DNA of 64,000 bases. It comes from a phage. Every line of letters starts with the position of its first letter. The stretch's first letter is position 1. Below the pieces are notes generated by a model. That model saw only the letters and a program-made list of their open reading frames with translations. It had not been told where the DNA came from and made no database searches. The stretch lies in the NCBI GenBank assembly GCA_025829515.1, contig GCA_025829515.1_4865.1; one strand, 5' to 3'. Made by a program: the position numbers and the translations under genes. Below are positions 3,257 to 62,800 of this stretch, piece by piece.

Positions 3257-3553
3257 ATGGGGTTTTACTCATCCACTGCACTTGAGCTGTTGTGTCGGCT
3301 CATTCAGCGGGATAATCCCCAACACGCAGGTCGAATCAGCGCAGATTCAATTGGGGAGTGTACGATCTATTACGATAAGTCGTTAAGCAGTAACACAGTG
3401 GCCGATGTTACCACCGCATCCAACTCGTTCGCTAATAAAGCGTACGGCCGCGCGGTTATCCAAACTGACGTCGAAGCAGCTGGAGTTAAAGGGATAGCGT
3501 ACTTCACCATAACAGCTAAAAATAGGCCCCGAAGGGCCTATTTTCTTTTTTAG
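3257..3553 (+). CDS. short N-terminal-module paralog of the receptor-binding family (98 aa), possibly a truncated remnant
   Basis: ATG with AGGAG RBS. Contains the RDNPQ and GECTIYYD motifs found at the N-termini of ORFs 3563 and 41. Its last codons overlap a strong terminator hairpin. Confidence 0.35.
   Translation: MGFYSSTALELLCRLIQRDNPQHAGRISADSIGECTIYYDKSLSSNTVADVTTASNSFANKAYGRAVIQTDVEAAGVKGIAYFTITAKNRPRRAYFLF
3523..3551 (+). terminator. rho-independent terminator (stem TAGGCCC / GGGCCTA, T-run)
   Basis: 7-bp GC-rich stem, CGAA loop, followed by TTTTCTTTTTT. Confidence 0.6.
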
Positions 3554-7118: not shown

Positions 7119-7152
7119 GCCCTCTTCCCCACGGGGAAGAGGCTTTCTTTTT
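7119..7152 (+). terminator. rho-independent terminator (CCTCTTCC...GGAAGAGG, T-run)
   Basis: GC-rich hairpin followed by CTTTCTTTTT; lies inside the 5' end of the track ORF 7117, which argues against that start. Confidence 0.6.
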
Positions 7153-9225: not shown

Positions 9226-9317
9226 GCCACTTTAATCAAAAGTAATATCATTTATCATTTGATACGTTTAATGCGCTTAGAGAGCGTTACAGAGCGTTTT
9301 AGAGGGTAAATAAAGCC

Positions 9318-9348
9318 CTTACCCACTCCCCTTACGGGAGTGGGTAAG
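9318..9348. terminator. bidirectional terminator hairpin (CTTACCCACTCCC / GGGAGTGGGTAAG)
   Basis: Perfect 13-bp stem, 5-nt loop, flanked by A-rich 5' and T-rich 3' tracts; sits between convergent genes 8710(+) and 9351(-). Confidence 0.6.
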
Positions 9349-9966: not shown

Positions 9967-10494
9967 ATGGCAGTCATCTCTGCAAAAGACCAACTCGTCG
10001 CGCTGTTTAATGCTGCAAACAGCGGACTGTCTAGTCCGTTAACTTCTGCTGACGTTACATTCGGCGCTGTTGCTGACTATTCACCAGCAGATTCTGGAGA
10101 CACCCGCAACTCCAAACTCACCATCACTGCCACCGCGGAATCCGCTAACTTTACTGGCGAGAAAGAGCTGCATTATACCCGCCTCGATTCATTGAACATC
10201 ATCGGTGCGAAAGCAGTTACCGCTGACCAGGCAGAATGGGATACCGATGAAGAAGTGCTTGCTTTTGTCAACGCAGATCTAATTGCCGCCGGTAAAACGG
10301 AAGATGCGTTTGCATTGTCTGAACTCACCATTTCACGCGAGGACGGCGACAGTGGTGAGAAAATCATCACTGTTATGGTGAAAGAAGGCCACATTAAATA
10401 CCAGCCTGCCAGCCTTGCAGTTTATACTGTAACGCAGCCAATCGTTAAAACTGACCTGAGCACCACCAACGGTGAACTGGACGGATTCGTTTAA
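9967..10494 (+). CDS. hypothetical protein, possible virion component (175 aa)
   Basis: AAGGAA RBS; C-terminal VKTDLSTTNGELDGFV is near-identical in pattern to the C-terminus of ORF 41. Confidence 0.5.
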   Translation: MAVISAKDQLVALFNAANSGLSSPLTSADVTFGAVADYSPADSGDTRNSKLTITATAESANFTGEKELHYTRLDSLNIIGAKAVTADQAEWDTDEEVLAFVNADLIAAGKTEDAFALSELTISREDGDSGEKIITVMVKEGHIKYQPASLAVYTVTQPIVKTDLSTTNGELDGFV

Positions 10495-10534: not shown

Positions 10535-10558
10535 CCTACCTCCCTTCGGGGAGGTAGG
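10535..10558. terminator. bidirectional terminator hairpin (CCTACCTCCC-TTCG-GGGAGGTAGG)
   Basis: 10-bp stem, TTCG tetraloop, A-run upstream and T-run downstream; between convergent genes. Confidence 0.6.
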
Positions 10559-14919: not shown

Positions 14920-15126
14920 TTATCGATTCCCCGCTCCACGGCTACAGCTTCCGCTGCAGGACCAGCTACACCCACCATTACAGTTATAGTGAGAAAGCGG
15001 TAAGCCAGCCAGGTTATTTGTGGTCGACACGGTGCCCTGGTTAGCGATATAGTTGTTTGCCTGTGCGGTTGTAATGTAACCTTCTGCCGTAACGAGACGG
15101 TTTCGAATAGTCTTGAGACTGATCAC
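14920..15126 (-). CDS. Cys-rich precursor-like small protein 3 (68 aa)
   Basis: GTG start with GGAGG RBS. N-terminal region (ISLKTIRNRL...ANNYI) is paralogous to the N-termini of ORFs 15142 and 15557; short C-terminal core HYNCNGGCSWSCSGSCS. Confidence 0.5.
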   Translation of the reverse strand: MISLKTIRNRLVTAEGYITTAQANNYIANQGTVSTTNNLAGLPLSHYNCNGGCSWSCSGSCSRGAGNR

Positions 15127-15141
15127 ATAAGCCTCCGTCAG

Positions 15142-15546
15142 TTAGGAGTTAGGACCTGAACAACCACCAGAGCACGCACCTGAGCAGTTTGCGGAGCAGG
15201 ATTTACCACAACCCCCAGAACAGCTGCCTGTGCACGTGCCGCTACAACCACCAGAGCACGAAGAGCTACAGCCCGTGCAGCTGCTGCTACAGCCTGATAC
15301 ACAGTTTGCCGAGCAAGTCGACCCACAACCACCTGTCGCGGACCCTGTGCAGCCGCCAGAGCAACTTGAGCAGCTAAAAGAGCATGTCCCACCACAGTCA
15401 TAGTGCGAACGGCCTTGACCTGCGAACAAGTCGGCGTTATTCGTAGCTTTATTGCGAATGTAGTTTTGCACATTCGTGGTGTTCTTTAAAGCGTTTGCAT
15501 CGATCGTGTTTAATCGGTTATTCAGTTCTTTTAATCCAATTGCCAT
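15142..15546 (-). CDS. Cys-rich precursor-like protein 2 (134 aa), (C-x-x-x)n Ser/Gly/Thr core
   Basis: ATG with AAGGGGG RBS. Leader-like N-terminal ~50 aa, then HYDCGGTCSFSCSS... with about 20 Cys, mostly one every fourth residue. Confidence 0.55.
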   Translation of the reverse strand: MAIGLKELNNRLNTIDANALKNTTNVQNYIRNKATNNADLFAGQGRSHYDCGGTCSFSCSSCSGGCTGSATGGCGSTCSANCVSGCSSSCTGCSSSCSGGCSGTCTGSCSGGCGKSCSANCSGACSGGCSGPNS

Positions 15547-15556
15547 TTAATCCCCC

Positions 15557-15949
15557 TTAGCGACCTGAACAGCCGCCGGAGCAGGCCCCGGAACAACTGG
15601 AAGAACATGAGCCACCGCAACCACCAGTGCAGTTACCGGTACAGCTACTACTGCAACCACCAGAACAACCAGAGCAACCAGAACAGTTACCGCCACACGT
15701 CGAAGAACAGCTACCGATGCAAGAAGCAGAACAGCTTCCTGAACAGCTCGAACAACCGTGAGAACAGCCATTCGAACACGTCCAAGAACATGTCCCGCCG
15801 CAATCTAGCTGTGCTTTCGTCCAACCCCCAAATCGGTCTGCCGCATTATGGGCTTTAGAGGCCACTTGCGCGTCGATGCGGGGGCCTGTCGCCATGTTAG
15901 CTTCGACTATCTGGACGCGGTTTCTGACGTCTTTAATAGATATCGCCAT
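15557..15949 (-). CDS. Cys-rich precursor-like protein 1 (130 aa), (C-x-x-x)n Ser/Gly/Thr core
   Basis: ATG with AAGGAAG RBS. Leader-like N-terminus (IKDVRNRVQIVEAN...), then QLDCGGTCSWTCSNGCSHGCSSCSGSC... with about 21 Cys. Confidence 0.55.
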   Translation of the reverse strand: MAISIKDVRNRVQIVEANMATGPRIDAQVASKAHNAADRFGGWTKAQLDCGGTCSWTCSNGCSHGCSSCSGSCSASCIGSCSSTCGGNCSGCSGCSGGCSSSCTGNCTGGCGGSCSSSCSGACSGGCSGR

Positions 15950-15970
15950 TACGCTTCCTTAAAAAGTAGA

Positions 15971-16007
15971 ACGAGCGGACTATGTCCATAAACATAGTCC
16001 GGCTCGT
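15971..16007 (-). promoter_or_regulatory. intergenic stem-loop upstream of the Cys-rich genes (attenuator / processing-site candidate)
   Basis: CGGACTATG / CATAGTCCG 9-bp stem, extended by ACGAG/CTCGT; on the minus strand it is followed by CTTTTT and then the RBS of gene 15949. Confidence 0.4.
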
Positions 16008-16014
16008 AAACAAA

Positions 16015-22543: not shown

Positions 22544-25500
22544 CTAAGAGGCCCACTCACCCGAGTTGTTGCCTTCGTTTCTACGTTCAGTATCCAACGT
22601 TTGTAAAATCCAATCCCATGTCCTGGTGGGGATGTGGAATGGATTACGCTTCTCAATGAGAATCGTCTCGCCACCCGTGCGAAGTTCCACCGGTGTCGTT
22701 TCAGTAATCACGAACATCGGATTACCACTACTGCCCACGCCATTAATAGTGAACTTCGCTTGCAGCGGCGGCACAGAACCTTCCGGAGGCACGAACACGA
22801 TGTGAATTGGCTGCATCGGTTTCGTGCGGGCAAGTGTCCCAGATATCTGAACAGCTGTTGTCGATGCACTGAAAGGTATAACATTACCCGGAATTTTCTC
22901 ACTACCCACGATGATATATCCAGGGTAGTTAGAGAGCATTGTCCCATTTACCGACACAAAACGCTCATTTTGAGTTGGGCGATAAGCCCGCATAAAGCCG
23001 TACTTCCATTCACCACCGTTAGACGTATAGTCTGCAGGAGCCGACTCAAGTAGCGGAGCACCACGTTTCTGCAGCCCTTTGTAAAACGGCGCTGGGAGTT
23101 TACCGTTCGGTGCAAGTTCCGGATAACCCTCACTTGCAGCAGACATCGTGATGTATTCCGTAACCGGGTTATCGACGTTATCTCCAAAGTTCGCGAACGC
23201 GACGGTTGATATCGACATCTCCTCATGCCCAGAAGACTGGCTGTCCGGAGAACGCTCAATATACGACTCAAATAGCGAGCGTAGATAATGGAAACGATTT
23301 AAATCTACTTCTGTTGTGGAAGGGTCCATCAAACCGTGGTTGATAGTGACACCTTCACCAGTTTCGAGGCCAGTAACACTAATCGATAAAGCGCCGCCTT
23401 TAAAATAATCAATCGCGTCAAACGGAATGTCGTATTCTATCTCACGAACAGTCGCCGAAGCCTGCCCACCTATCTTACTAATCGACGATATTCGCAGTAT
23501 CTGCGTATCAACAATATAGCGATAACGAATAAGCCAGCGCGAACCAATGGCTGCGAACTCGCTAGCGATTGAAACCGGGAGATAGTCTAAACAGTCAGGC
23601 GACTGAACATCCACGCTCTTGATTACACGAGGAGCATCAACCAGCGTATTAGTAACGCTGGATTGTGTGCTGGCAATTCTTCCGGTTGGTTTATCGTACG
23701 GCGCGGCAATAAAGCCACAATTTAAACTGGTCTTGGAGTTACTCCACCGCAGGACTCTGGTTTTACCTTTCTCATCAGCAGAAGGGGCCATGAAGTTTAA
23801 TGAAACTTCGACGTCCGAGGTTTTTGGGACTTCAGGATAATCAGTGTCGATTACCACCGAACCCTCGAATGTCGCCATTCCGTTTTCTTTCGGGTTGCTT
23901 GGTGTAAACCAGCAATACGGGGACGCGTTTTCAGTAGAAACAACCGCCGCAAGAAGAATCCTGAGCGAGGTGGCACTTACGAATTTATAATCAAATAACC
24001 CACGGTCTAAACGAACGAGGTTATCCCCAGAAACAGACGGGTTAGTTGGATACGCGTACAGCCATTGTTTAGGTAACGGATCAACCTTATTCAACGGCAG
24101 CATTTTCGGGTTATCCGTCAATGACCAGTCGGTGTTACTCACCCCGTGTGCCAGACGTGTTTCGAAGTGCCGTTTAAGTTCGGACGCCATGCCAAAATCA
24201 AACGTCGTTTCAAACTCGTAAGTCGTGCCTGCAACCAATCCCGCGTCAGGGACATCGATGTGTCCGATATAGCCGCGTTCCAAGTTAATACCTTCCGTGT
24301 CCACAATAGGTTCGGCGCGCGAATATAACGCATCGGTTATCATGTTCACATAGAGGTAATGCCTTAAACCGTTCGGCGTCTTAACAAACTCCTGCAGGCG
24401 GGCAACTTTAGTGTTTTTATCCGAGGCCCCAACCGCAAAGTCACCGTCGTAAACTGTGAAACGAATTGCGGCTGCTTTAGCGCTATCGTTACACTCGGCA
24501 CGGAATGCTAAGCAATGTTGCTTCCACCCCTTCTTGACAGTCGCCTCCAGATACCCCGCTTCTGTAATACCCGCACCGATAATTTCACCGTCCAGATAAA
24601 CAGAAACAGCACCACCGCCACGAACCCAAATCCGCAGCTTACCAGAGTCGCAACGAACCCATGTTTTCGCCAAGAGGTTAACGACCGACAAATCACCCAT
24701 TCCGGTTGTCGTTAAACCAATCTGCGCACCGTAGTTCGTTTCCGGGACGGCAACCTCAAACCCACTAAAATCAATACCGGCACCGGTATTGATTACCGCG
24801 TTCTGCCACGTTCTTTCCATACGGTTATCTGGAGAGAACCACTGGAACATCGGCGTGGTTTGCAGGTCTATCGAACCAGATACCGTCCCCTCTTTACGTG
24901 CACCATTTAACAGATAGAAATAATTCAAATCCGTTACGGCGAGTGTGGTACGTGTAGATCCCACAGTCCAAGTCTTGCCGCGCACCGCGGCAAAATCGGT
25001 CACGGAGTCCTCTTTCGCGTTTGCTAGCGCAGCTGCAACTACGTCTAAACGTTTTGACAAATCGTTCAGAACGTTTGGGGTAACGCCGCGATTATCCGAC
25101 AAGCCATTTAGGTTGGTAGAATATCGAGCGATACCGGGCACTGTTTGAGAAGCCGTTGGGATCTGTAAATCGGCGAAGTTGTGATGGTGGCCTTTATCAC
25201 TAAGACCAGTAACTGCTTCTGCCAACGCATCAGAAAGTGGTTTATCGACGTCAGCTGTGTTATCAGCCAAGTCCAGACCCAAATCCTTTTTCGTTAGCGT
25301 TCGGCTACCAGTGTCCATCGGCTGGTTATTCAGCAGCGTTGTCTTCCTGACGTACGAAGACAGATCACCCTCGTACGGTAAGAGCGAAGCTGGGGTGGCT
25401 GCTTGTCCCTTGACTACATCGCTCGGCTTATCAGTCAGCGTCACAACGCCGGGTTCAGAGGTCGTCGCGGGTTTGGCTGTGACCTTCCCGGTGACGGGAT

Positions 25501-31730: not shown

Positions 31731-31738
31731 AAGGTAAA

Positions 31739-31761
31739 CCCTACTCCCATTGGGAGTAGGG
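31739..31761. terminator. bidirectional terminator hairpin (CCCTACTCCC-ATT-GGGAGTAGGG)
   Basis: 10-bp perfect stem; A7-rich tract upstream and T6 downstream; between convergent genes 30468(+) and 31791(-). Confidence 0.6.
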
Positions 31762-31790
31762 TACCTATATCTTTTTTGCCCGCAGGCCGA

Positions 31791-39858: not shown

Positions 39859-39890
39859 AGGTAGCCTACGGGCTACCTTCTTTTTTTGTT
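39859..39890 (+). terminator. rho-independent terminator (AGGTAGCC-TACG-GGCTACCT, T7 run)
   Basis: 8-bp stem followed by TCTTTTTTTGTT. Confidence 0.6.
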
Positions 39891-40532: not shown

Positions 40533-40543
40533 CTCTCCTCTCT

Positions 40544-40575
40544 GGAACCCTTCGGGGTTCCATTTCTTCTTTTTT
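40544..40575 (+). terminator. rho-independent terminator (GGAACCC-TTCG-GGGTTCC, T-run)
   Basis: 7-bp stem, TTCG loop, followed by ATTTCTTCTTTTTT. Confidence 0.6.
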
Positions 40576-40628: not shown

Positions 40629-43139
40629 ATGCTCAAGGTCGAACGTATCATTTTGAAAGGATTTACCGGCATGGGGTTACATGAAATCGAAACGTTTGAT
40701 TTCACCCTTAAGTCAACCGTTACCATCATCCTCGGTGGCAACGGCTGCGGTAAAACAAGCCTCCTATCTGTTTTTCTCCCCTTAGCTCCAGCAAAATCTG
40801 AATTCCGTGAAGGTGGTTCTTACACTAACTACGCGTTAGTCGGGGACGACCGTCTTAAGTTTGAAGTCCTGCGACGTGGGTCTTCTTTGTCTTGTAGTAT
40901 TTTCAATATCACTAAAGGTGTCTCCATCGTAGACTCGGTAAACGCCAAAGTTTACAACTCCATGGTGGAGCAATTAACCGGAATCACCAAAGAAATCAAA
41001 GAGTTAATTAATGGTGAGACCTTATTAACTGACGCCACTACCGAAGTTCGTCGTAAATGGTTTACGTTAATGTCAGAATCTGATCTGACGTACGTTGTTG
41101 GTTGCTATCGACGTTTGCGTAAACTCGCTTCCAGTTTAAGTGGGGCCATTGAGCACACCGGCCGTAAAATCGGTGAGGCAAAAATGCGCGTGGTGGACGA
41201 TGAAGAAGATCGTGCACGTTTGGAAGTTCGTTTGAAAGAACTCGATGCTGAGCTTCAGGAATTAAACCGCACAATTGAAGCGAGACCCGGTTTAGATAAT
41301 GCCGTTTCGGTTGATAGTATCCGGAAACGCATTGCTTCGTTGCAACCGGCTGTAAAACTCATTATGGAACGTTATGGCGTTCTGCCTTCTGACGAACTGA
41401 TTAACGAGTTTCAAAGTCGTGTGGTTGCCTGGCGTGAGCAAGCTGCCTCTGCTGAAACTGAATGCAACATGTACAATAAAGAGTTGTCACAGCTACTGGA
41501 TGAGGAGTCGCGTCAAGCGTATCTGATGCGCAACCATACCGGTCTAAAACAAACAATCGACAGCTTAAAACAGGAACTGGCAACGTTCCAACAGAACTGG
41601 ATGTTCCCGGCTCTGTTTGAAGGTACCCGCATTGATGTGGATAGCATTCAGAACGCGTTAAACGATGCCTGTAACTGGAATTTACCGTTGTCCATGCATC
41701 TGGACCAGTTAAAGACAACAGATCGCCTGGGAGCGTTAGAGAAGCGTTTACAGGGTATGGATTTAACCTCTGCGGGTCTATCTGAAAAGCTGCAACGTTG
41801 TGAGAATGTGCTACACGGTTTATACCACGACCGTCAACACTTCTTAGAAACTGCAGAAGTTGATTGTCCACAGTGTAACCACCGTTTCCGTCCTGGGATT
41901 CGTAAGTCGTTACCTGAAATTGAAAAGGCCATCAACGATAATGAAGGTTGGAAGAAGCAGCTGAAAGACGAAATGGATAGTCTTTTGCGTGACCGCAAAG
42001 AGATTGAAGAGGACGTCCGTAGCTTACGTACGATTCGCGAAATCGTCATGTCGTATTCCAACCATCCTGTTGTCGGTTTGTTTTTCCGTAAACTGCAGGA
42101 GCTGGATATCTTCACCACGGCGCGGGATCGTTATGGTGCCATTGCACGTGCCTTTACCGAAGAGTTAGATTCGGCCATGATGTATCTGCGTCAATCAGCG
42201 AAGCTTGCAACAGCGGAACGGGAATGGCAAGAGGCTGTTGCCGCAGTAGGTAATGTTGATGGTGCGCTGAGCCAGAAAATTGAACATATCCGTTCACAAC
42301 TGGACGGGGCTAACCGTCGACTGATAGAATACCGCAGACAAGCCAATGAGCTGGAACGCGAAACCACCCAACTGCAACAAACCAAAGAAGCAATCGAACG
42401 TTTCCAAAAAGGCTACGAACATCTGGTATCGGAAATGAACATCTCCGTTAACAACGTCGTGGTTCGCGAGTTGTTAAACCGACGCGAAGCGAAGCTCGAT
42501 GCGTACACTTCCGCTCGTGAACGGTTTCGTCAAATGGAAGGGGCTATTGCACGTTTAGCGGAATTGGAAAAAGAGCAAGCTGAGTTGCTCAAAGAACACC
42601 ATCATGCCAGATTGATTATCAATGCCGTCTCACCCGAAAAAGGATTATTGCGTCGTTACTTTTATGCTGCGATTACCCGCATCATGGATTTAATGAATCG
42701 GTATATCGAAATGGTGTGGGCATATCCGATGCAGGTTATTCCATGCGATCTAACCGACGGGGATTTGGATTATACTTTCCCGGTGCGATTAAAAGACCAT
42801 GAAGAACTGGTGCCGGATGTGAAGAAAGGTTCAAAAGCACAGCGTATCATTTTCAACATGATGTTTCGTTTAACGGCGTATAAAGCACTTGGTTTACAAA
42901 ATTATCCTTTGTTATTGGATGAACCATCTGAAGGCATGGATGAAGAACACAAAAACCGATTAGTTAACTTCATTAAATCGTTGGCGTTGTCGGGAGAGTT
43001 TTCTCAATTGCTGGTCGTTTCGCATGAAGCGGAAGTTCATTCTAAACTTAACGAAGCCACCTACTGTGTCGTAGAACCAGAAGGTGTAACGCTTCCACCG
43101 GTGTATAACGAAGGGGTAATAATCAAATATGCATCATAA
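40629..43139 (+). CDS. Rad50/SbcC-like recombination/repair ATPase with zinc hook (836 aa)
   Basis: N-terminal Walker A GGNGCGKTS; long coiled-coil middle containing CPQCNHRF (CxxC zinc-hook); C-terminal LLLDEPSEGMDEEH (Walker B / D-loop) and VVSHE (H-loop). Confidence 0.7.
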   Translation: MLKVERIILKGFTGMGLHEIETFDFTLKSTVTIILGGNGCGKTSLLSVFLPLAPAKSEFREGGSYTNYALVGDDRLKFEVLRRGSSLSCSIFNITKGVSIVDSVNAKVYNSMVEQLTGITKEIKELINGETLLTDATTEVRRKWFTLMSESDLTYVVGCYRRLRKLASSLSGAIEHTGRKIGEAKMRVVDDEEDRARLEVRLKELDAELQELNRTIEARPGLDNAVSVDSIRKRIASLQPAVKLIMERYGVLPSDELINEFQSRVVAWREQAASAETECNMYNKELSQLLDEESRQAYLMRNHTGLKQTIDSLKQELATFQQNWMFPALFEGTRIDVDSIQNALNDACNWNLPLSMHLDQLKTTDRLGALEKRLQGMDLTSAGLSEKLQRCENVLHGLYHDRQHFLETAEVDCPQCNHRFRPGIRKSLPEIEKAINDNEGWKKQLKDEMDSLLRDRKEIEEDVRSLRTIREIVMSYSNHPVVGLFFRKLQELDIFTTARDRYGAIARAFTEELDSAMMYLRQSAKLATAEREWQEAVAAVGNVDGALSQKIEHIRSQLDGANRRLIEYRRQANELERETTQLQQTKEAIERFQKGYEHLVSEMNISVNNVVVRELLNRREAKLDAYTSARERFRQMEGAIARLAELEKEQAELLKEHHHARLIINAVSPEKGLLRRYFYAAITRIMDLMNRYIEMVWAYPMQVIPCDLTDGDLDYTFPVRLKDHEELVPDVKKGSKAQRIIFNMMFRLTAYKALGLQNYPLLLDEPSEGMDEEHKNRLVNFIKSLALSGEFSQLLVVSHEAEVHSKLNEATYCVVEPEGVTLPPVYNEGVIIKYAS

Positions 43140-43320
43140 AGGTTGGCGCTTATGGGCTTGGTGGGGTTTTCAGTTCCTTCAGTTTGTTGTGATGGTACTG
43201 TACCTCTCCTTTTGTGCAACCGTAGTGGTTATCGCTGCGGTCGTTTATTTAGCTGCTGCTCTTAAAGAACGTCTGTTCGACACGCGTTGTGAGTGGCGAG
43301 ATATAGGGGAACGGACATGA
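43129..43320 (+). CDS. small hydrophobic membrane protein (63 aa)
   Basis: Trp-rich N-terminus and two predicted TM helices; start overlaps the end of the Rad50-like gene. Confidence 0.4.
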   Translation: MHHKGWRLWAWWGFQFLQFVVMVLYLSFCATVVVIAAVVYLAAALKERLFDTRCEWRDIGERT

Positions 43321-43839: not shown

Positions 43840-44118
43840 GTGGGAGAAACGTCATGTAACAGTGAAACAGTCTCTGATCCCGTGGTCGTGGGTTCAGGGG
43901 CGGCCGAGCCAACCCGGCGTATCGTTCTTTCGGGCGTGGGGATGGCTATAGGGTCTTCAAAGAACCTTCTAGCAGACATCGCGGAAGTCTGCGGGCCGGA
44001 TGATTTTGCAGTTTCACGTACAGTCGGGGAAGACTGGCGTGGTAATCAGAAGCGCCATGAGCGAATGTGGCGACGGAAGGTTACCTCAGCATCGCAGCGT
44101 TTTCAACGACGTTGTTGA
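43840..44118 (+). CDS. hypothetical protein (92 aa)
   Basis: GTG start with AGGAGGG RBS. Confidence 0.35.
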   Translation: MGETSCNSETVSDPVVVGSGAAEPTRRIVLSGVGMAIGSSKNLLADIAEVCGPDDFAVSRTVGEDWRGNQKRHERMWRRKVTSASQRFQRRC

Positions 44119-44823: not shown

Positions 44824-45042
44824 ATGTTTCACCGTCCTGGGTTTTCAGCTTTAAACACCGATGTCTGTTGGGCTGAGTACGAGCGGGTGAAGGAGTTCTT
44901 ACCCGTAAATCCTAAACACATCAACGTGGGTACTATCGGGCGTGTTGCGTTCGATGATACTCCGCTGAGTACGTGTATTAAAGCAGCGCTTGGTACGCTG
45001 CCTGAGCCTCACCACCACGACTGGGAGGCAACTTTACCCTAA
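44824..45042 (+). CDS. hypothetical small protein (about 72 aa)
   Basis: Start chosen at ATG 44824 with GAGGAG RBS; that RBS can pair with an upstream complement (see findings). Confidence 0.3.
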   Translation: MFHRPGFSALNTDVCWAEYERVKEFLPVNPKHINVGTIGRVAFDDTPLSTCIKAALGTLPEPHHHDWEATLP

Positions 45043-47593: not shown

Positions 47594-47630
47594 GGTCAGA
47601 CCTTCGGGTCTGACCACCTTTTATTTAATT
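47594..47630 (+). terminator. rho-independent terminator (GGTCAGACC-TTCG-GGTCTGACC, T-run)
   Basis: Perfect 9-bp stem, TTCG loop, followed by ACCTTTTATTT. Confidence 0.6.
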
Positions 47631-49119: not shown

Positions 49120-49145
49120 CTACCTACTCCCTTGGGAGTAGGTAG
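49120..49145. terminator. bidirectional terminator hairpin (CTACCTACTCCC / GGGAGTAGGTAG)
   Basis: Stem of about 11 bp flanked by AAAAAATAAAAG upstream and TTCTTTTTTTCTTT downstream; between convergent genes. Confidence 0.6.
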
Positions 49146-52198: not shown

Positions 52199-52237
52199 TC
52201 CCTCTTACCTTCGGGTAAGAGGGGATTTCCTTTTTTT
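52199..52237 (+). terminator. rho-independent terminator (CCCTCTTACC-TTCG-GGTAAGAGGG, T7 run)
   Basis: 10-bp stem, TTCG loop, followed by GATTTCCTTTTTTT. Confidence 0.6.
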
Positions 52238-57969: not shown

Positions 57970-57998
57970 CTACCCACTCCCGTAAGGGGAGTGGGTAC
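57970..57998. terminator. bidirectional terminator hairpin (TACCCACTCCC-GTAA-GGGGAGTGGGTA)
   Basis: Stem nearly identical to the hairpin at 9318; flanked by AAATAAAATAAAG upstream and CTTACTTTTTATTTTTTG downstream. Confidence 0.6.
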
Positions 57999-60992: not shown

Positions 60993-61657
60993 GATTAGAC
61001 CCGGCACGGCGAAAAAAAGCAGAAGCTTATGCTTTACAGTTACTGAACTTAGTTGACCCGACCGGGATTAACGCGGAAGCTGCCAAGCGCGCTTTCTCAC
61101 GAATGTCTGACGAAGAGTTCAATCGTCTGCGCGAAGGGTTGCCTGTTTACAACCCAACTGGTGGCAAGGTCAAAATTGACCATATGCGCAATATTAAAAT
61201 TTGCGAAGCGATGGGACTGAACTTGTGTCAGCGCCTGTGGCTCACGGAACCGAAAACCGGTATCCTACAGCGTACCCGTTACCCCCATTTAGTCTTCCGG
61301 CTACCTGCACGTCGCCAGACGCAGATGCAAGAGAAGAAAATGGCGGTGGCGAAGAACGATAAAGTCCGCGATAAACTCTCGGGTCAGGTAGTAGGGCCTT
61401 CCAAAGCTTCGGGTGTTTCGTTTCCAGAAGCGTACATCATGTACTCGGATGGACACGACTCAACGCTCCAGGAGTTCCTGTGGGCGCGTGGTGGTAACGA
61501 TACGTTACAACGTGCGTTCTATCAATCGCTACGGCAAACCGGTAAAGGTCGCATCAACCTGGAAGGGGCTGAGCGTACCAGTTCAAAAGCGCCGCGTACA
61601 TGGTCTTCGTACTTTAAAGCAATGCACATCGGTAACAACTTAGGACGCCCGGAATGA
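60989..61657 (+). CDS. hypothetical protein (222 aa)
   Basis: ATGA overlap with the upstream gene. Confidence 0.5.
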   Translation: MRLDPARRKKAEAYALQLLNLVDPTGINAEAAKRAFSRMSDEEFNRLREGLPVYNPTGGKVKIDHMRNIKICEAMGLNLCQRLWLTEPKTGILQRTRYPHLVFRLPARRQTQMQEKKMAVAKNDKVRDKLSGQVVGPSKASGVSFPEAYIMYSDGHDSTLQEFLWARGGNDTLQRAFYQSLRQTGKGRINLEGAERTSSKAPRTWSSYFKAMHIGNNLGRPE

Positions 61658-62382
61658 GATTAGGACGCCGTTTCTTAGTCGATATCGACACAATCTTCGA
61701 TACACGAATTGGTTGGGCGAAAGTGCTGCAGCCTGATGTATTAGAGAAGCTTGATTTAGAAGTGTATCGGATGCGGTTCACAGATGCGTGGGCCGAAGTG
61801 GTAGGAATTCAGGACTGGAATAAAAAGTTCGCGGAGCGTGATAAACGCGCGTTGCAGAACGCGCAGCCAACAGAAATGTTGCTTACGCTAAAGAACGAAG
61901 TACAGGCAATGTTAATGACGATACAGATGCACGCTCCTATTGAGCGACCTGTCTTAACGTTTAACCTGTGGCCATACGCTGATCTCGATGATGAAGAACG
62001 TCATGCGTTTTTGGAAGAACTGCGTTACTACTATAACGAAGTGCAAGTAGACGTCGTTGTTATTCCTCACAGCGATCTTACACCAGGACGACTTGCTTCT
62101 GCATGGGACGGTTGGATAATGTACGATTGGTATCCGTGGATAGAACAACACGCGAACCATTTCCAGAAACCGATTCCGGATTTCACCATTACCCGACCGA
62201 GTATGCTGACCAGCGAATTAACGGAAGAAGCCATCGCGCAAATAAAAAGAGATAAGGTGAACCCCTTTAAGGAGTCCACCCGTTTTCTTGCTCAATACGT
62301 CGGTACTGACGTAAAGGACACTGCGCTGTTTAGTCTTCGTCGTCATCAGCAGGACGACGACTCGCAAACGCAGACGCCATGA
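61654..62382 (+). CDS. hypothetical protein (242 aa)
   Basis: ATGA overlap with the upstream gene. Confidence 0.5.
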   Translation: MRLGRRFLVDIDTIFDTRIGWAKVLQPDVLEKLDLEVYRMRFTDAWAEVVGIQDWNKKFAERDKRALQNAQPTEMLLTLKNEVQAMLMTIQMHAPIERPVLTFNLWPYADLDDEERHAFLEELRYYYNEVQVDVVVIPHSDLTPGRLASAWDGWIMYDWYPWIEQHANHFQKPIPDFTITRPSMLTSELTEEAIAQIKRDKVNPFKESTRFLAQYVGTDVKDTALFSLRRHQQDDDSQTQTP

Positions 62383-62800
62383 TCTGGTCAACGTCAATCT
62401 TTTCGCCTACTGGTGCCAACTCACCTTCTTTCGGAGGCCGTACTGCGGCAATCTGTGGGACGGTGGGTTGGTATCCATTATTTAAATCTTCTTCATCGTC
62501 GTGACGTTTGATACCAACGCCAGCACGGGTCATTAAGAAGCCGTTTAAACTGTTGGCCAAATCTTGAGTCGCCTCAGCGCCTTTCTCAGCAGCTTTAATT
62601 TTCCGCTTCGTCATGACCTGTTTGTCGATGCCGTTGATTAGGCGTTCGATTCGGTCGACGGCTTTTAAGTCTTTGTGTACTTCACCGTCGTTCACCATAT
62701 CTGTGACGAGCTTAACGCGTAGCTGTTGTGTTTGGCGGAGAAGCGAATCTTCGTTGTCCACATCTCCGTCGAACGCTTGGTATTTCACTTCTTCGCTCAT
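62330..62800 (-). CDS. hypothetical acidic protein (156 aa)
   Basis: ATG with TGAGG RBS; its 3' end overlaps convergent gene 61654-62382 by 53 nt. Confidence 0.45.
   Translation of the reverse strand: MSEEVKYQAFDGDVDNEDSLLRQTQQLRVKLVTDMVNDGEVHKDLKAVDRIERLINGIDKQVMTKRKIKAAEKGAEATQDLANSLNGFLMTRAGVGIKRHDDEEDLNNGYQPTVPQIAAVRPPKEGELAPVGEKIDVDQIMASAFASRRPADDDED

What the first reader, a model, noticed from the sequence alone, without database searches (positions are those of the whole stretch)
9318..9348. Family of near-identical palindromic bidirectional terminators (CCCACTCCC...GGGAGTGGG core)
All five hairpins that lie between convergent genes (9318-9348, 10535-10558, 31739-31761, 49120-49145, 57970-57998) share a [CT]TACC[CT]ACTCCC / GGGAGT[AG]GGTA[AG] stem family; the copies at 9318 and 57971 are almost identical. 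The unidirectional terminators instead use unrelated stems with TTCG loops. A repeated palindromic element at every convergent junction could also serve as a recombination or protein-binding site, not only as a terminator.
Basis: seen in the sequence. Interest (0 to 1): 0.45.

Follow-up and report, generated by a model that had tools for sequence, protein, structure and literature searches.

The report
Jumbo-phage two-way terminator hairpin family
Five look-alike palindromic hairpins between convergent genes of a Salmonella jumbo phage are real and non-random, and they are this phage group's version of a terminator sequence motif already described in related giant phages, so the finding is mostly ordinary.

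Summary
The window comes from a ~240 kb SPN3US-like (Seoulvirus) Salmonella jumbo phage. All five hairpins are at the stated coordinates, each between convergent genes. They are perfect 10-13 bp palindromes with an A-tract upstream and a T-tract downstream, and they fold stably on both strands. Their similarity is far beyond chance.

- Genome-wide, 15 of 16 convergent junctions carry a hairpin. The sixth junction in this window is a tail-to-tail gene overlap with none.
- The same ACTCC stems also occur at co-directional gene ends with TTCG loops.
- No indel or mosaic breakpoint lies at a hairpin.

Terminators of this genome share an architecture: a pyrimidine-rich 5' arm, CC-loop-GG closure, a purine-rich 3' arm and TTAT in the tail. 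That matches the conserved terminator motif mapped by ONT-cappable-seq in phiKZ and 201phi2-1.

The exact 10-bp stem TACC[CT]ACTCC recurs in multiple copies in Erwinia jumbo phages. It also occurs at gene 3' ends in Pseudomonas phage EL, but in bacteria only at chance level. Stems change slowly, by compensatory swaps. Loops vary freely and repeatedly flip between near-identical genomes.

Best reading: bidirectional intrinsic terminators, a lineage-specific variant of a known kind.

The parts
9318..9348 (.). Site 1: 13-bp perfect palindrome CTTACCCACTCCC / GGGAGTGGGTAAG with loop cttac. Flanked by AAATAAAGCC upstream and CATTATTTATTTT downstream.
   Evidence: (terminator-like on both strands). 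RNA fold -34.6 kcal/mol on + and -31.1 on -, z -6.9 and -5.9. Lies between the + ORF ending 9225 and the - ORF ending 9351. The 10-bp core is identical in SPAsTU, pEa29 and phiEaH2.
10535..10558 (.). Site 2: 10-bp palindrome CCTACCTCCC / GGGAGGTAGG with loop ttcg. Flanked by AAATAAATAAAAGGTA upstream and GCCTTTATTTTC downstream. A one-bp-indel relative of the family.
   Evidence: z -5.7 and -5.4. Lies between the + ORF ending 10494 and the - ORF ending 10576. The loop is flipped to cgaa in 1252, SPN3US and Proteus phage 7. The upstream gene is the last of a tandem paralog array whose copy number varies among relatives, and the stem varies with it.
31738..31762 (.). Site 3: 11-bp palindrome ACCCTACTCCC / GGGAGTAGGGT with loop att. 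The stem is extended by GGT/ACC across a 2-nt bulge. A-tract upstream, T-tract downstream.
   Evidence: z -4.8 and -5.7. Lies between the + ORF ending 31730 and the - ORF ending 31791. Loop states in close relatives are att, aat, gtt and aac. The stem base is changed by two compensatory pairs (CTCCTACTCCC) in SPAsTU, phiEaH2 and ChrisDB.
49120..49145 (.). Site 4: 11-12-bp palindrome CTACCTACTCC(C) / (G)GGAGTAGGTAG with loop cttg. Flanked by AAAAAATAAAAGC upstream and TTCTTTTTTTC downstream.
   Evidence: z -4.7 and -6.7. Lies between the + ORF ending 49100 and the - ORF ending 49158. The stem is identical in SPAsTU and phiEaH2. In ChrisDB it is CTACCCACTCC, a T.A to C.G swap. The loop is flipped to caag in SPN3US, Proteus 7 and SPLA3.
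57971..57997 (.). Site 5: 11-bp palindrome TACCCACTCCC / GGGAGTGGGTA with loop gtaag, the reverse complement of the site 1 loop. Flanked by AAATAAAATAAAGCC upstream and a T-rich tail downstream.
   Evidence: z -6.4 and -6.3. Lies between the + ORF ending 57946 and the - ORF ending 58009. The ortholog in phiEaH2 is CTACCCACTCC with loop gcag.
7121..7142 (+). Unidirectional terminator-like hairpin CCTCTTCCC(C) cacg (G)GGGAAGAGG followed by CTTTCTTTTT. It has the same pyrimidine-arm, CC-loop-GG architecture.
52200..52223 (+). Unidirectional terminator-like hairpin CCCTCTTACC ttcg GGTAAGAGGG. It belongs to a second near-identical stem family with three copies in the genome.
   Evidence: 1252: 17872, 45476 and 133292.
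39859..39878 (+). Unidirectional terminator-like hairpin AGGTAGCC tacg GGCTACCT followed by a T-tract. Used as a non-family control.
   Evidence: The stem and loop are conserved 8/8 in SPAsTU and phiEaH2.
40543..40562 (+). Unidirectional terminator-like hairpin TGGAACCC ttcg GGGTTCCA followed by a T-tract. Used as a non-family control.
   Evidence: Changed by compensatory substitutions to TGGAGACC in phiEaH2.
47594..47615 (+). Unidirectional terminator-like hairpin GGTCAGACC ttcg GGTCTGACC. Used as a non-family control.
   Evidence: Replaced by an unrelated stem in SPAsTU and phiEaH2.
62330..62382 (.). Sixth convergent junction: a 53-nt tail-to-tail overlap of two genes with no terminator hairpin. 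This is the counter-example to 'every convergent junction'.
   Evidence: both ORFs are full-length PHROG matches. One search shows the same arrangement in phage 1252 at 143423-143475.

Best explanation
The five elements are most likely bidirectional, factor-independent (intrinsic) transcription terminators that also act as 3'-end-protecting hairpins. They separate convergent transcription units of an SPN3US-like jumbo phage.

Each is a perfect Watson-Crick palindrome flanked by AAATAAA-type and TTTATTT-type tracts. RNA made from either strand therefore ends in the same stable hairpin: a pyrimidine-rich 5' arm, CC-loop-GG closure, a purine-rich 3' arm and a U-rich tail.

They look alike because terminators of this whole phage lineage are drawn from a narrow stem vocabulary, ...(C)TACC[CT][AT]CTCC - loop - GGAG[AT][AG]GGTA(G)... 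followed by TTAT-containing T-tracts. This is the SPN3US-group variant of the conserved terminator motif already mapped experimentally in phiKZ and 201phi2-1.

Bidirectional copies show the consensus most fully because they have long, perfect stems and both tails. They cannot fix a UUCG tetraloop, which is UUCG on only one strand. Their loops are therefore unconstrained and flip.

Shown: anatomy, position, statistics, conservation, compensatory changes and the resemblance to the published motif. Inferred: that RNA polymerases actually stop here in both directions, and which polymerase (presumably the phage's own multisubunit RNAPs).
For: **Position.** All five lie between the stop codons of convergent ORFs. 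Genome-wide, 15 of 16 convergent junctions of phage 1252 carry such a hairpin.

**Structure.** The hairpins are stable on both strands, -21 to -35 kcal/mol, z -4.7 to -6.9. The consensus scan calls 9318 and 10535 terminator-like on both strands. My census classes all five as having both A- and T-tracts.

**Lineage-wide terminator architecture in the 243-kb genome.**
- Pyrimidine fraction of the 5' arm is 0.64 in 44 terminator-like hairpins against 0.46 in 64 control hairpins (p=4.5e-5).
- The arm ends in CC in 28/44 and in GG in 1/44.
- TTAT occurs in 31/52 tails against a 22% background (p=8.5e-9).
- TACC occurs in 18/44 against 2/64 controls (p=7e-7).

**Published precedent.**
- In phiKZ, 61 of 133 ONT-cappable-seq-mapped terminators share BCCYCCCCHWWDGGGRRGGBYTTATKYYGT. 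Six bidirectional terminator regions lie between convergent genes (PMC10914365).
- In 201phi2-1, 59 of 132 terminators carry a similar motif, 15 are bidirectional, and 8 tested terminators work in vivo (PMC11512511).

**Direct sequence comparison.**
- phiKZ uses CCCTCTCC ttcg GGAGAGGG and GCCCTCCC attac GGGAGGGC at its convergent junctions.
- Phage 1252 at 240945 has CTACCCTCTCC ttcg GGAGAGGGTAG, which contains the phiKZ stem and loop verbatim.
- The phiKZ core consensus hits the window 9 times against 1.98 expected, including sites 1 and 5.

**Selection on the helix.**
- Orthologous stems are kept in SPAsTU, pEa29, phiEaH2 and ChrisDB while loops and flanks change.
- The changes seen are compensatory: two pairs at the base of site 3, T.A to C.G at site 4 in ChrisDB, A.T to T.A between EL and 1252.

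**Lineage specificity of the exact 10-bp hairpin.**
- It gives 13 scattered hits in 596 Gb of bacterial genomes, about what chance predicts.
- It gives 45 loci in viral contigs. Of these, 39 lie in contigs related to this lineage, with up to 6 copies per genome.
Against: - No transcript 3'-end data exist for any SPN3US-like phage in the searchable literature, so termination is inferred.
- The T-tracts are interrupted (TTTATTT) and start 2-9 nt after the perfect stem.
- Copies of the same stem in EL and some metagenomic contigs have no obvious T-tract.
- The match to the published phiKZ IUPAC consensus is marginal: 3 mismatches of 18, and only for sites 1 and 5. The link rests on architecture rather than on sequence identity.
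- A structural requirement alone does not explain why this particular stem sequence is preferred.
Confidence: 0.85

Rival explanations
1. The stem is also a sequence-specific recognition element, as RNA hairpin or as DNA palindrome, for a factor conserved in phiKZ-related jumbo phages. Candidates are the phage multisubunit RNAPs, a termination or 3'-processing factor, or an mRNA-handling protein. On this reading the sequence itself is selected, not only the helix.
For: - The same 10-11-bp stem is kept at orthologous sites 1, 4 and 5 between Seoulvirus and Erskinevirus, although flanking proteins are only 30-78% identical.
- Non-family stems at the same divergence were replaced or altered in 3 of 4 cases.
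- The exact stem recurs at the 3' ends of remote orthologs (25-30% aa identity) of a conserved ~970-aa gene (EL and two metagenomic contigs) and of the DNA polymerase gene (metagenomic contigs only).
- There are several copies per genome in many relatives.
Against: - Stems tolerate compensatory swaps at several positions.
- Many terminators in the same genome use other stems.
- Loops are completely free, and isolated half-sites occur only at chance level.
- 201phi2-1 terminators of the conserved type work in uninfected host cells.
- The distant copies were found by searching for the pattern, so their 'conservation' is biased by ascertainment. In the unbiased ChrisDB comparison the family stems also drift.
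- G.U content gives no sign of a special two-strand constraint.
Confidence: 0.12
2. The copies are a small mobile or recombinogenic palindromic element (REP/BIME- or MITE-like), or a recombination site that marks mosaic boundaries.
For: - Copies are multi-copy and near-identical, with similar flanks.
- Loops invert repeatedly between genomes that are 95-99% identical, and all four site-2/site-4 combinations occur. The palindromes therefore do undergo intramolecular DNA events.
- Gene content varies next to site 2 among relatives.
Against: - There is no presence/absence polymorphism. Every orthologous junction keeps a hairpin in five close relatives, and every one covered by the regions fetched from four distant relatives does so too, although the ChrisDB counterpart of site 1 is diverged.
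- Copies occur only at gene 3' ends.
- Both indels between the window and phage 1252 have breakpoints elsewhere.
- Flanking genes are not paralogs.
- The element is absent from bacterial genomes beyond chance.
- At site 2 the stem changes together with the terminal gene of a paralog array. The terminator travels with its gene rather than acting as a junction site.
Confidence: 0.03
3. The resemblance is a chance similarity among GC-rich hairpins.
For: None beyond the general compositional bias of terminator stems.
Against: - The core hairpin occurs 4 times against 0.02 expected.
- Half-sites occur 7 times against 0.18.
- The broad TACC..CTCC-loop-GGAG..GGTA pattern occurs 7 times in the genome against 0 in simulations.
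- The same stem is multi-copy in related genomes.
Confidence: 0

Closest known systems
Conserved intrinsic-terminator motif of phiKZ (Putzeys et al. 2024, PMC10914365) and motif A of 201phi2-1 (Poppeliers et al. 2024, PMC11512511)
   Same: - Found in a jumbo phage of the phiKZ-related lineage.
- A hairpin with a pyrimidine/C-rich 5' arm, CC-loop-GG closure and a purine-rich 3' arm, followed by a T-tract containing TTAT.
- Used at many gene ends, including bidirectional versions between convergent genes.
- Some stems are literally shared: CCCTCTCC ttcg GGAGAGGG occurs in phiKZ and inside 1252:240945.
   Different: - Stems here are longer (10-13 bp against 7-8).
- They carry a TACC...GGTA base and an A/T-containing core ([CT]ACTCC) instead of the near-pure C run.
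- Tails are longer T-runs (TTTATTT) instead of TTATKYYGT.
- The published IUPAC core matches only sites 1 and 5, at 3 mismatches.
- No 3'-end mapping exists for this phage.
Bidirectional intrinsic terminators between convergent bacterial genes (described genome-wide in E. coli; from my own knowledge)
   Same: A perfect GC-rich palindrome flanked by an A-tract and a T-tract, placed between convergent stop codons. One element serves both strands.
   Different: Bacterial examples are not reported to share a common stem sequence. Here the stems belong to a lineage-wide sequence family.
REP/BIME extragenic palindromes of enterobacteria (from my own knowledge)
   Same: Repeated palindromes at gene 3' ends, often between convergent genes. 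They can stabilise upstream mRNA and bind proteins.
   Different: - REPs are imperfect, lack T-tracts, number in the hundreds, show presence/absence variation and are mobilised by RAYT transposases.
- None of these features was seen here.
C(UUCG)G tetraloop terminators of T4-type phages (from my own knowledge)
   Same: The unidirectional terminators of this genome mostly use ttcg loops closed by C-G (17 of 40 non-convergent hairpins have ttcg or cgaa loops).
   Different: The bidirectional copies have heterogeneous loops (cttac, att, cttg, gtaag). Where the loop is ttcg, it flips to cgaa in close relatives.
Small inversions of hairpin loops flanked by inverted repeats, well known in chloroplast non-coding DNA (from my own knowledge)
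   Same: The loop is replaced by its reverse complement while the arms stay unchanged. This recurs among close relatives: ttcg/cgaa, cttg/caag, att/aat, gtt/aac.
   Different: Seen here in a phage genome at terminator palindromes. The mechanism (template switching or cruciform processing) was not examined.

Membership tests
Bidirectional intrinsic (factor-independent) terminator | Located between the 3' ends of convergent genes | tested here: met
   All five sites lie between convergent stop codons, 3-93 nt from them.
Bidirectional intrinsic (factor-independent) terminator | GC-rich hairpin that forms equally in transcripts from both strands | tested here: met
   Perfect Watson-Crick palindromes of 10-13 bp. 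MFE is -21 to -35 kcal/mol and z is -4.7 to -6.9 on both strands.
Bidirectional intrinsic (factor-independent) terminator | U-rich tract right after the hairpin in both directions (A-tract upstream, T-tract downstream on the + strand) | tested here: met
   The consensus scan flags 9318 and 10535 on both strands. My census classes all five as two-tailed. The tracts are interrupted (TTTATTT) and start 2-9 nt after the perfect stem.
Bidirectional intrinsic (factor-independent) terminator | RNA 3' ends accumulate at the tails on both strands, with reduced read-through | not testable with these tools
   No transcriptome with 3'-end mapping for SPN3US-like phages was found.
Conserved phiKZ/201phi2-1-type terminator motif | Genome belongs to the phiKZ-related jumbo-phage lineage | tested here: met
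   The window is 99% identical to Seoulvirus genomes. Proteins next to the EL copies are remote homologs of this phage's proteins. I did not check RNAP genes inside the window itself.
Conserved phiKZ/201phi2-1-type terminator motif | Pyrimidine/C-rich 5' arm, C-run/loop/G-run closure, purine-rich 3' arm | tested here: met
   Pyrimidine fraction 0.64 against 0.46 in control hairpins (p=4.5e-5). CC closure in 28/44 against GG in 1/44. All five window sites fit.
Conserved phiKZ/201phi2-1-type terminator motif | TTAT element in the tail after the stem | tested here: met
   31/52 tails against a 22% background (p=8.5e-9). Sites 1, 2, 4 and 5 have TTAT or TTTAT on at least one side.
Conserved phiKZ/201phi2-1-type terminator motif | Match to the published consensus BCCYCCCCHWWDGGGRRGG... 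| tested here: inconclusive
   The core consensus gives 9 hits in the window against 1.98 expected. Only sites 1 and 5 match, at the 3-mismatch limit. phiKZ itself gives 20 against 0.98 at 1-3 mismatches.
REP/BIME- or MITE-like mobile palindromic element | Presence/absence polymorphism between close relatives, and copies independent of gene ends | tested here: not met
   A hairpin is present at every orthologous junction in five close relatives, and at every one covered by the regions fetched from four distant relatives; the ChrisDB counterpart of site 1 is diverged. All hairpin copies are at gene 3' ends, and only one isolated half-site exists.
REP/BIME- or MITE-like mobile palindromic element | Occurrence in host (bacterial) genomes | tested here: not met
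   13 scattered non-enterobacterial hits in 596 Gb, about the chance expectation.
REP/BIME- or MITE-like mobile palindromic element | Cognate transposase (for example RAYT) in the genome | not tested
   No dedicated search was made. None is named in the annotations seen.
Recombination / mosaic-boundary site | Indel or mosaic breakpoints coincide with the element | tested here: not met
   The two indels between the window and phage 1252 (3340-3470 and 45002/45041) have breakpoints away from any hairpin. Gene-number variation next to site 2 is a paralog-array change in which the terminator goes with its gene.

The most novel reading that the evidence does not exclude
The stem TACC[CT]ACTCC / GGAGT[AG]GGTA may not be just one stable helix among many. 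It may be a sequence-specific signal read by machinery conserved across phiKZ-related, nucleus-forming jumbo phages, for example their non-canonical multisubunit RNA polymerases or an mRNA 3'-end or export factor. That would explain why the same 10 bp mark the 3' ends of orthologous core genes from Salmonella and Erwinia phages to Pseudomonas phage EL, whose proteins are only about 25-30% identical.
Probability: 0.12. Interest if true: 0.65.

Novelty: new variant of a known kind. Interest (0 to 1): 0.3.

Why it matters
The result gives SPN3US-like phages, a genetic model for giant phages, a usable terminator map and consensus. It extends the 'conserved terminator motif' seen in Pseudomonas jumbo phages to enterobacterial ones.

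The recurrence of one exact stem across genera, and the preferred polarity (pyrimidine arm first), point to a testable question. Do the phage-encoded multisubunit RNA polymerases, or another conserved factor, read more than the helix?

In practice these are compact, strong two-way insulators for synthetic biology. The frequent loop flips are a caution for anyone who uses such intergenic sites as phylogenetic markers.

Tried and rejected
1. **Segmental duplication.** blastp among all genes flanking the five sites found no paralogy (best E 0.065). Rejected.
2. **'Frozen by two-strand constraint'.** The idea was that G.U intermediates are forbidden in bidirectional stems. G.U content is the same in convergent and co-directional hairpins (12/427 against 14/380 pairs, p=0.55). 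No support.
3. **Known RNA family.** Rfam found nothing at gathering thresholds. Only sub-threshold noise appeared around sites 1-2.
4. **Covariance model from the five copies.** MAFFT could not register the 3' arms because loop lengths differ. I dropped this and used pattern, half-site and simulation scans instead.
5. **8-bp core scan of viral contigs** (CCCACTCC...GGAGTGGG).
6. **Concerted evolution of sites 1 and 5.** Shared loops within a genome suggested it. Orthology mapping showed that the phiEaH2 site 5 loop (gcag) differs from the site 1 loop (tttgcg). Not supported.
7. **Typing loop orientation in all 34 close relatives from BLAST identity of short queries.** Too confounded by other substitutions to be clean.
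8. **Conserved fold in the 93-nt spacer upstream of site 1.** It folds strand-specifically in the window (z -2.97), but there is no supporting covariation in five relatives.
9. **Literature search for the stem sequence itself.** It returned only unrelated primer-type matches.
Full report
**What the window is.** Megablast places the window in a ~240 kb Salmonella jumbo phage of the SPN3US group (Seoulvirus). It is 99.3% identical to Salmonella phage 1252 and to the SPFM phages, and 96% to SPN3US. I fetched the whole 243,229-bp genome of phage 1252 with its annotation as a genome-wide stand-in. I also fetched syntenic regions from progressively more distant relatives:
- SPN3US, Proteus phage 7 and SPLA3 (95-99% nucleotide identity);
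- SPAsTU and Erwinia phage pEa_SNUABM_29 (~70%);
- phiEaH2 (Erskinevirus) and ChrisDB (Machinavirus);
- parts of Pseudomonas phages EL and phiKZ.

| Site | Coordinates | 5' arm | Loop | 3' arm |
|---|---|---|---|---|
| 1 | 9318-9348 | CTTACCCACTCCC | cttac | GGGAGTGGGTAAG |
| 2 | 10535-10558 | CCTACCTCCC | ttcg | GGGAGGTAGG |
| 3 | 31738-31762 | ACCCTACTCCC | att | GGGAGTAGGGT |
| 4 | 49120-49145 | CTACCTACTCC | cttg | GGAGTAGGTAG |
| 5 | 57971-57997 | TACCCACTCCC | gtaag | GGGAGTGGGTA |

- Each lies between the stop codons of convergent ORFs.
- Each has an A-rich tract upstream and a T-rich tract downstream.
- Each folds into a very stable hairpin on both strands, with z -4.7 to -6.9.
- ACTCCC-N2-8-GGGAGT occurs 4 times against 0.02 expected.
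- TACCYACTCC half-sites occur 7 times against 0.18 in simulations, and only one (17898, coding) is outside a hairpin.

Sites 1 and 5 share an 11-bp stem and the flank AAATAAAGCC, and their loops are reverse complements. Site 3 shares the 9-bp core. Site 2 is a one-base-pair-indel relative.

- The window has a sixth convergent pair, 61654-62382(+) and 62330-62800(-). Both are full-length PHROG matches. They overlap tail to tail by 53 nt with no hairpin.
- Genome-wide, 15 of 16 convergent junctions have a hairpin.
- The family is not specific to convergent junctions. The same stems occur between co-directional genes with ttcg loops elsewhere in the genome: 1252:66227 ACCCTACTCC ttcg GGAGTAGGGT, 43822 ACCCACTCC ttcg, 22701 AGCTTACTCCC ttcg, 205693 CCCACTC ttcg.
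- The narrow [CT]ACTCC core is found in 4/17 convergent against 3/40 other terminator-like hairpins (p=0.18). Only the TACC...GGTA stem base (11/17 against 9/40, p=0.005) and stems of 10 bp or more (15/17 against 19/40, p=0.007) are enriched at convergent junctions.
- A second near-identical family, CCCTCTTACC ttcg GGTAAGAGGG, has three copies at co-directional sites, including window 52200.
- Flanking genes of the five sites are not paralogs, so gene-plus-terminator duplication does not explain the resemblance.
- The two indels between the window and phage 1252 have breakpoints away from any hairpin.
- At site 2 the upstream gene is the last member of a tandem paralog array with 1 to 4 copies in different relatives. 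The stem changes with the terminal gene. The terminator travels with its gene rather than acting as a fixed junction site.

**What explains the family.** Terminator-like hairpins of this genome share an architecture:
- The 5' arm is pyrimidine-rich: 0.64 against 0.46 in 64 control hairpins without T-tracts (p=4.5e-5).
- The arm next to the loop ends in CC in 28 of 44 and in GG in 1.
- TTAT occurs in 31 of 52 tails against a 22% background (p=8.5e-9).
- TACC occurs in 18 of 44 against 2 of 64 (p=7e-7).

This is the architecture of a motif that is already published:
- In phiKZ, ONT-cappable-seq mapped 133 termination sites. Of these, 61 share 5'-BCCYCCCCHWWDGGGRRGGBYTTATKYYGT-3'. Six bidirectional terminator regions lie between convergent genes (PMC10914365).
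- In 201phi2-1, 59 of 132 terminators carry a motif that 'strongly resembles' it, 15 are bidirectional, and eight tested terminators work in vivo in the uninfected host (PMC11512511).

Running my census on 50 kb of phiKZ shows the same vocabulary. It finds CCCTCTCC ttcg GGAGAGGG, GCCCTCCC ttcg GGGAGGGC tttatgttgt, and ATAAT-GCCCTCCC-attac-GGGAGGGC-TTAT at the convergent gp129/gp130 junction. Phage 1252 at 240945 has CTACCCTCTCC ttcg GGAGAGGGTAG, which contains a phiKZ stem and loop verbatim.

The published core consensus hits the window 9 times against 1.98 expected, but only sites 1 and 5 match, at 3 mismatches. phiKZ itself gives 20 against 0.98. The window's family is therefore a sequence variant of the same kind of element, not an identical motif.

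**How widely the exact stem occurs.**
- The pattern TACCYACTCC-N3-8-GGAGTRGGTA gives 13 scattered hits in 596 Gb of bacterial and archaeal genomes. That is about what chance predicts, and none is in enterobacteria.
- It gives 45 loci in the viral-contig collection.
- Twenty-four of these lie in SPN3US-like and Erwinia jumbo phages, with several per genome (phiEaH2 6, a 246-kb contig 6, ChrisDB 3). Nearly all are flanked by A- and T-tracts.
- Fifteen lie in more distant large contigs that encode remote homologs (20-30% aa identity) of this phage's proteins. These include Pseudomonas phage EL.
- In EL one copy sits in the convergent junction gp055/gp056, 13 nt past the stop of gp056. This ~970-aa protein is the ortholog (26% identity over 743 aa) of the 1252 gene whose own 3' end carries CTACCCTCTCC...GGAGAGGGTAG. 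The two stems differ by one A.T to T.A swap.
- The other EL copy follows the major head protein gene.
- Two further metagenomic lineages have the hairpin 11-15 nt past the stop of orthologs of that gene and of the DNA polymerase gene.
- These distant copies were found by the pattern, so they show recurrence, not an unbiased conservation rate.

**Unbiased ortholog comparisons.** In relatives retrieved by gene homology, stems behave as follows:

| Site | Window | Relatives |
|---|---|---|
| 1 | CTTACCCACTCCC | 10-bp core TACCCACTCC identical in SPAsTU, pEa29 and phiEaH2; loops cgata, ttttcg, tttgcg |
| 3 | ACCCTACTCCC | CTCCTACTCCC in SPAsTU, phiEaH2 and ChrisDB (two compensatory pairs at the stem base) |
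| 4 | CTACCTACTCC | identical in SPAsTU and phiEaH2; CTACCCACTCC in ChrisDB (T.A to C.G swap) |
| 5 | TACCCACTCCC | CTACCCACTCC in phiEaH2 |

- ChrisDB's equivalent of site 2 is TACCTACACCC/GGGTGTAGGTA, a compensatory transversion relative to the family. Its site-1-like hairpin has diverged and carries a mismatch.
- Non-family stems at the same distances: one is conserved 8/8, one is changed by compensatory substitutions, and the others are replaced or keep only their loop-proximal 6 bp.
- Family stems are thus somewhat more conserved, but they do evolve, and they do so by compensation. That is the signature of selection on a helix.
- G.U content does not differ between convergent and co-directional hairpins. 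My idea that two-strand reading freezes the stems gets no support from that measure.

**Loops.** Unidirectional terminators mostly use ttcg, the C(UUCG)G tetraloop (its stability is established knowledge). A bidirectional element can be UUCG on one strand only. Its loops are heterogeneous, and they flip. Among five genomes that are 95-99% identical:
- site 2 is ttcg or cgaa;
- site 4 is cttg or caag;
- site 3 is att, aat, gtt or aac (two reverse-complement pairs).

Stems and flanks are invariant. All four site-2/site-4 combinations occur, so flipping is recurrent (or there is recombination between the sites). This is the only sign of DNA-level activity at the palindromes. It resembles the loop inversions known from chloroplast hairpins.

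**Mechanism and verdict.** The best-supported explanation (confidence 0.85) is that these are bidirectional intrinsic terminators and 3'-end hairpins of the lineage-typical consensus.
- Shown: position, anatomy, statistics, conservation with compensation, and resemblance to an experimentally mapped motif in relatives.
- Inferred: actual termination in both directions, and by which polymerase.

No 3'-end map exists for SPN3US-like phages, Rfam has no family for the element, and the stem sequence is not mentioned in the searchable literature.

The most novel reading not excluded is that the particular stem sequence is itself read by conserved phage machinery. I put that at about 0.12. The mobile-element or recombination-site reading is largely refuted, and chance is excluded.

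The finding is real but mostly explained. It is a new sequence variant of a known kind of element, with two modest extras: the cross-genus recurrence of one exact stem, and frequent loop flipping.

Noticed in passing
window 10545-10548, 31749-31751, 49131-49134 (loops of sites 2, 3 and 4); orthologs in 1252, L007, L180, L181: Hairpin loops are replaced by their reverse complement between genomes that are 95-99% identical (ttcg/cgaa, att/aat, gtt/aac, cttg/caag). Stems and flanks stay identical. All four site-2/site-4 combinations occur, so the flips are recurrent.
   Followed up: partly
window 52200-52223; phage 1252 at 17872, 45476 and 133292: There is a second near-identical terminator stem family, CCCTCTTACC ttcg GGTAAGAGGG. 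It has three copies in the genome, all at co-directional gene ends.
   Followed up: partly
window 62330-62382: Two real convergent genes (PHROG 3328 and PHROG 5894) overlap tail to tail by 53 nt, with no terminator between them.
   Followed up: partly
window 9226-9317: A 93-nt spacer lies between the stop of the endolysin-like gene and site 1. It has sequence blocks conserved across genera (CATTTATC-TCT, TTAGAGAGCGTTACAG). It folds only on the + strand (z -2.97 against +0.84). There is no supporting covariation, and its function is unknown.
   Followed up: partly
window 9967-10494; L009 7892-9629; L010 20437-21550; L008 45999-48262: A ~175-aa gene next to site 2 belongs to a tandem paralog array. 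The array has 1 copy here, 2 in phiEaH2, 3 in pEa29 and 4 in SPAsTU.
   Followed up: partly
window 3340-3470 and 45002-45041: There are two indels relative to phage 1252. The first is about 130 bp present only in the window, flanked by GTCGAA-CAGC microhomology. The second is a ~550-bp gene (1252 125582-126134) that is absent from the window.
   Followed up: partly
phage 1252 at 22740-22775, 43855-43885 and 66285-66320 (outside the window): An AT-rich motif such as GATAGATATTAT[CT]TTAGGGAGA, or TATATTAC-TTAGG, follows several co-directional family terminators. It looks like an early-promoter consensus of the phiKZ type (the comparison is from memory).
   Followed up: no
window about 40632-43142 (+): This gene is annotated in relatives as an SMC-domain or 'SbcC-like subunit of palindrome specific endonuclease'. 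The genome carries many perfect palindromes whose loops flip.
   Followed up: no
window 15122-16011, with a hairpin at 15976-16001: An ~890-nt stretch has no annotated CDS in phage 1252. It ends in a 10-14-bp palindrome, CGGACTATGT ccataa ACATAGTCCG, just past the stop of the minus-strand gene. The palindrome has no clear U-tract.
   Followed up: no
L047 9445-9476 (Pseudomonas phage EL): A third EL hairpin, ACCTACCCTAGTGG atct CCACTAGGGTAGGT, starts with the same CCTACCC as the two family copies. This suggests that EL has its own related stem vocabulary.
   Followed up: no
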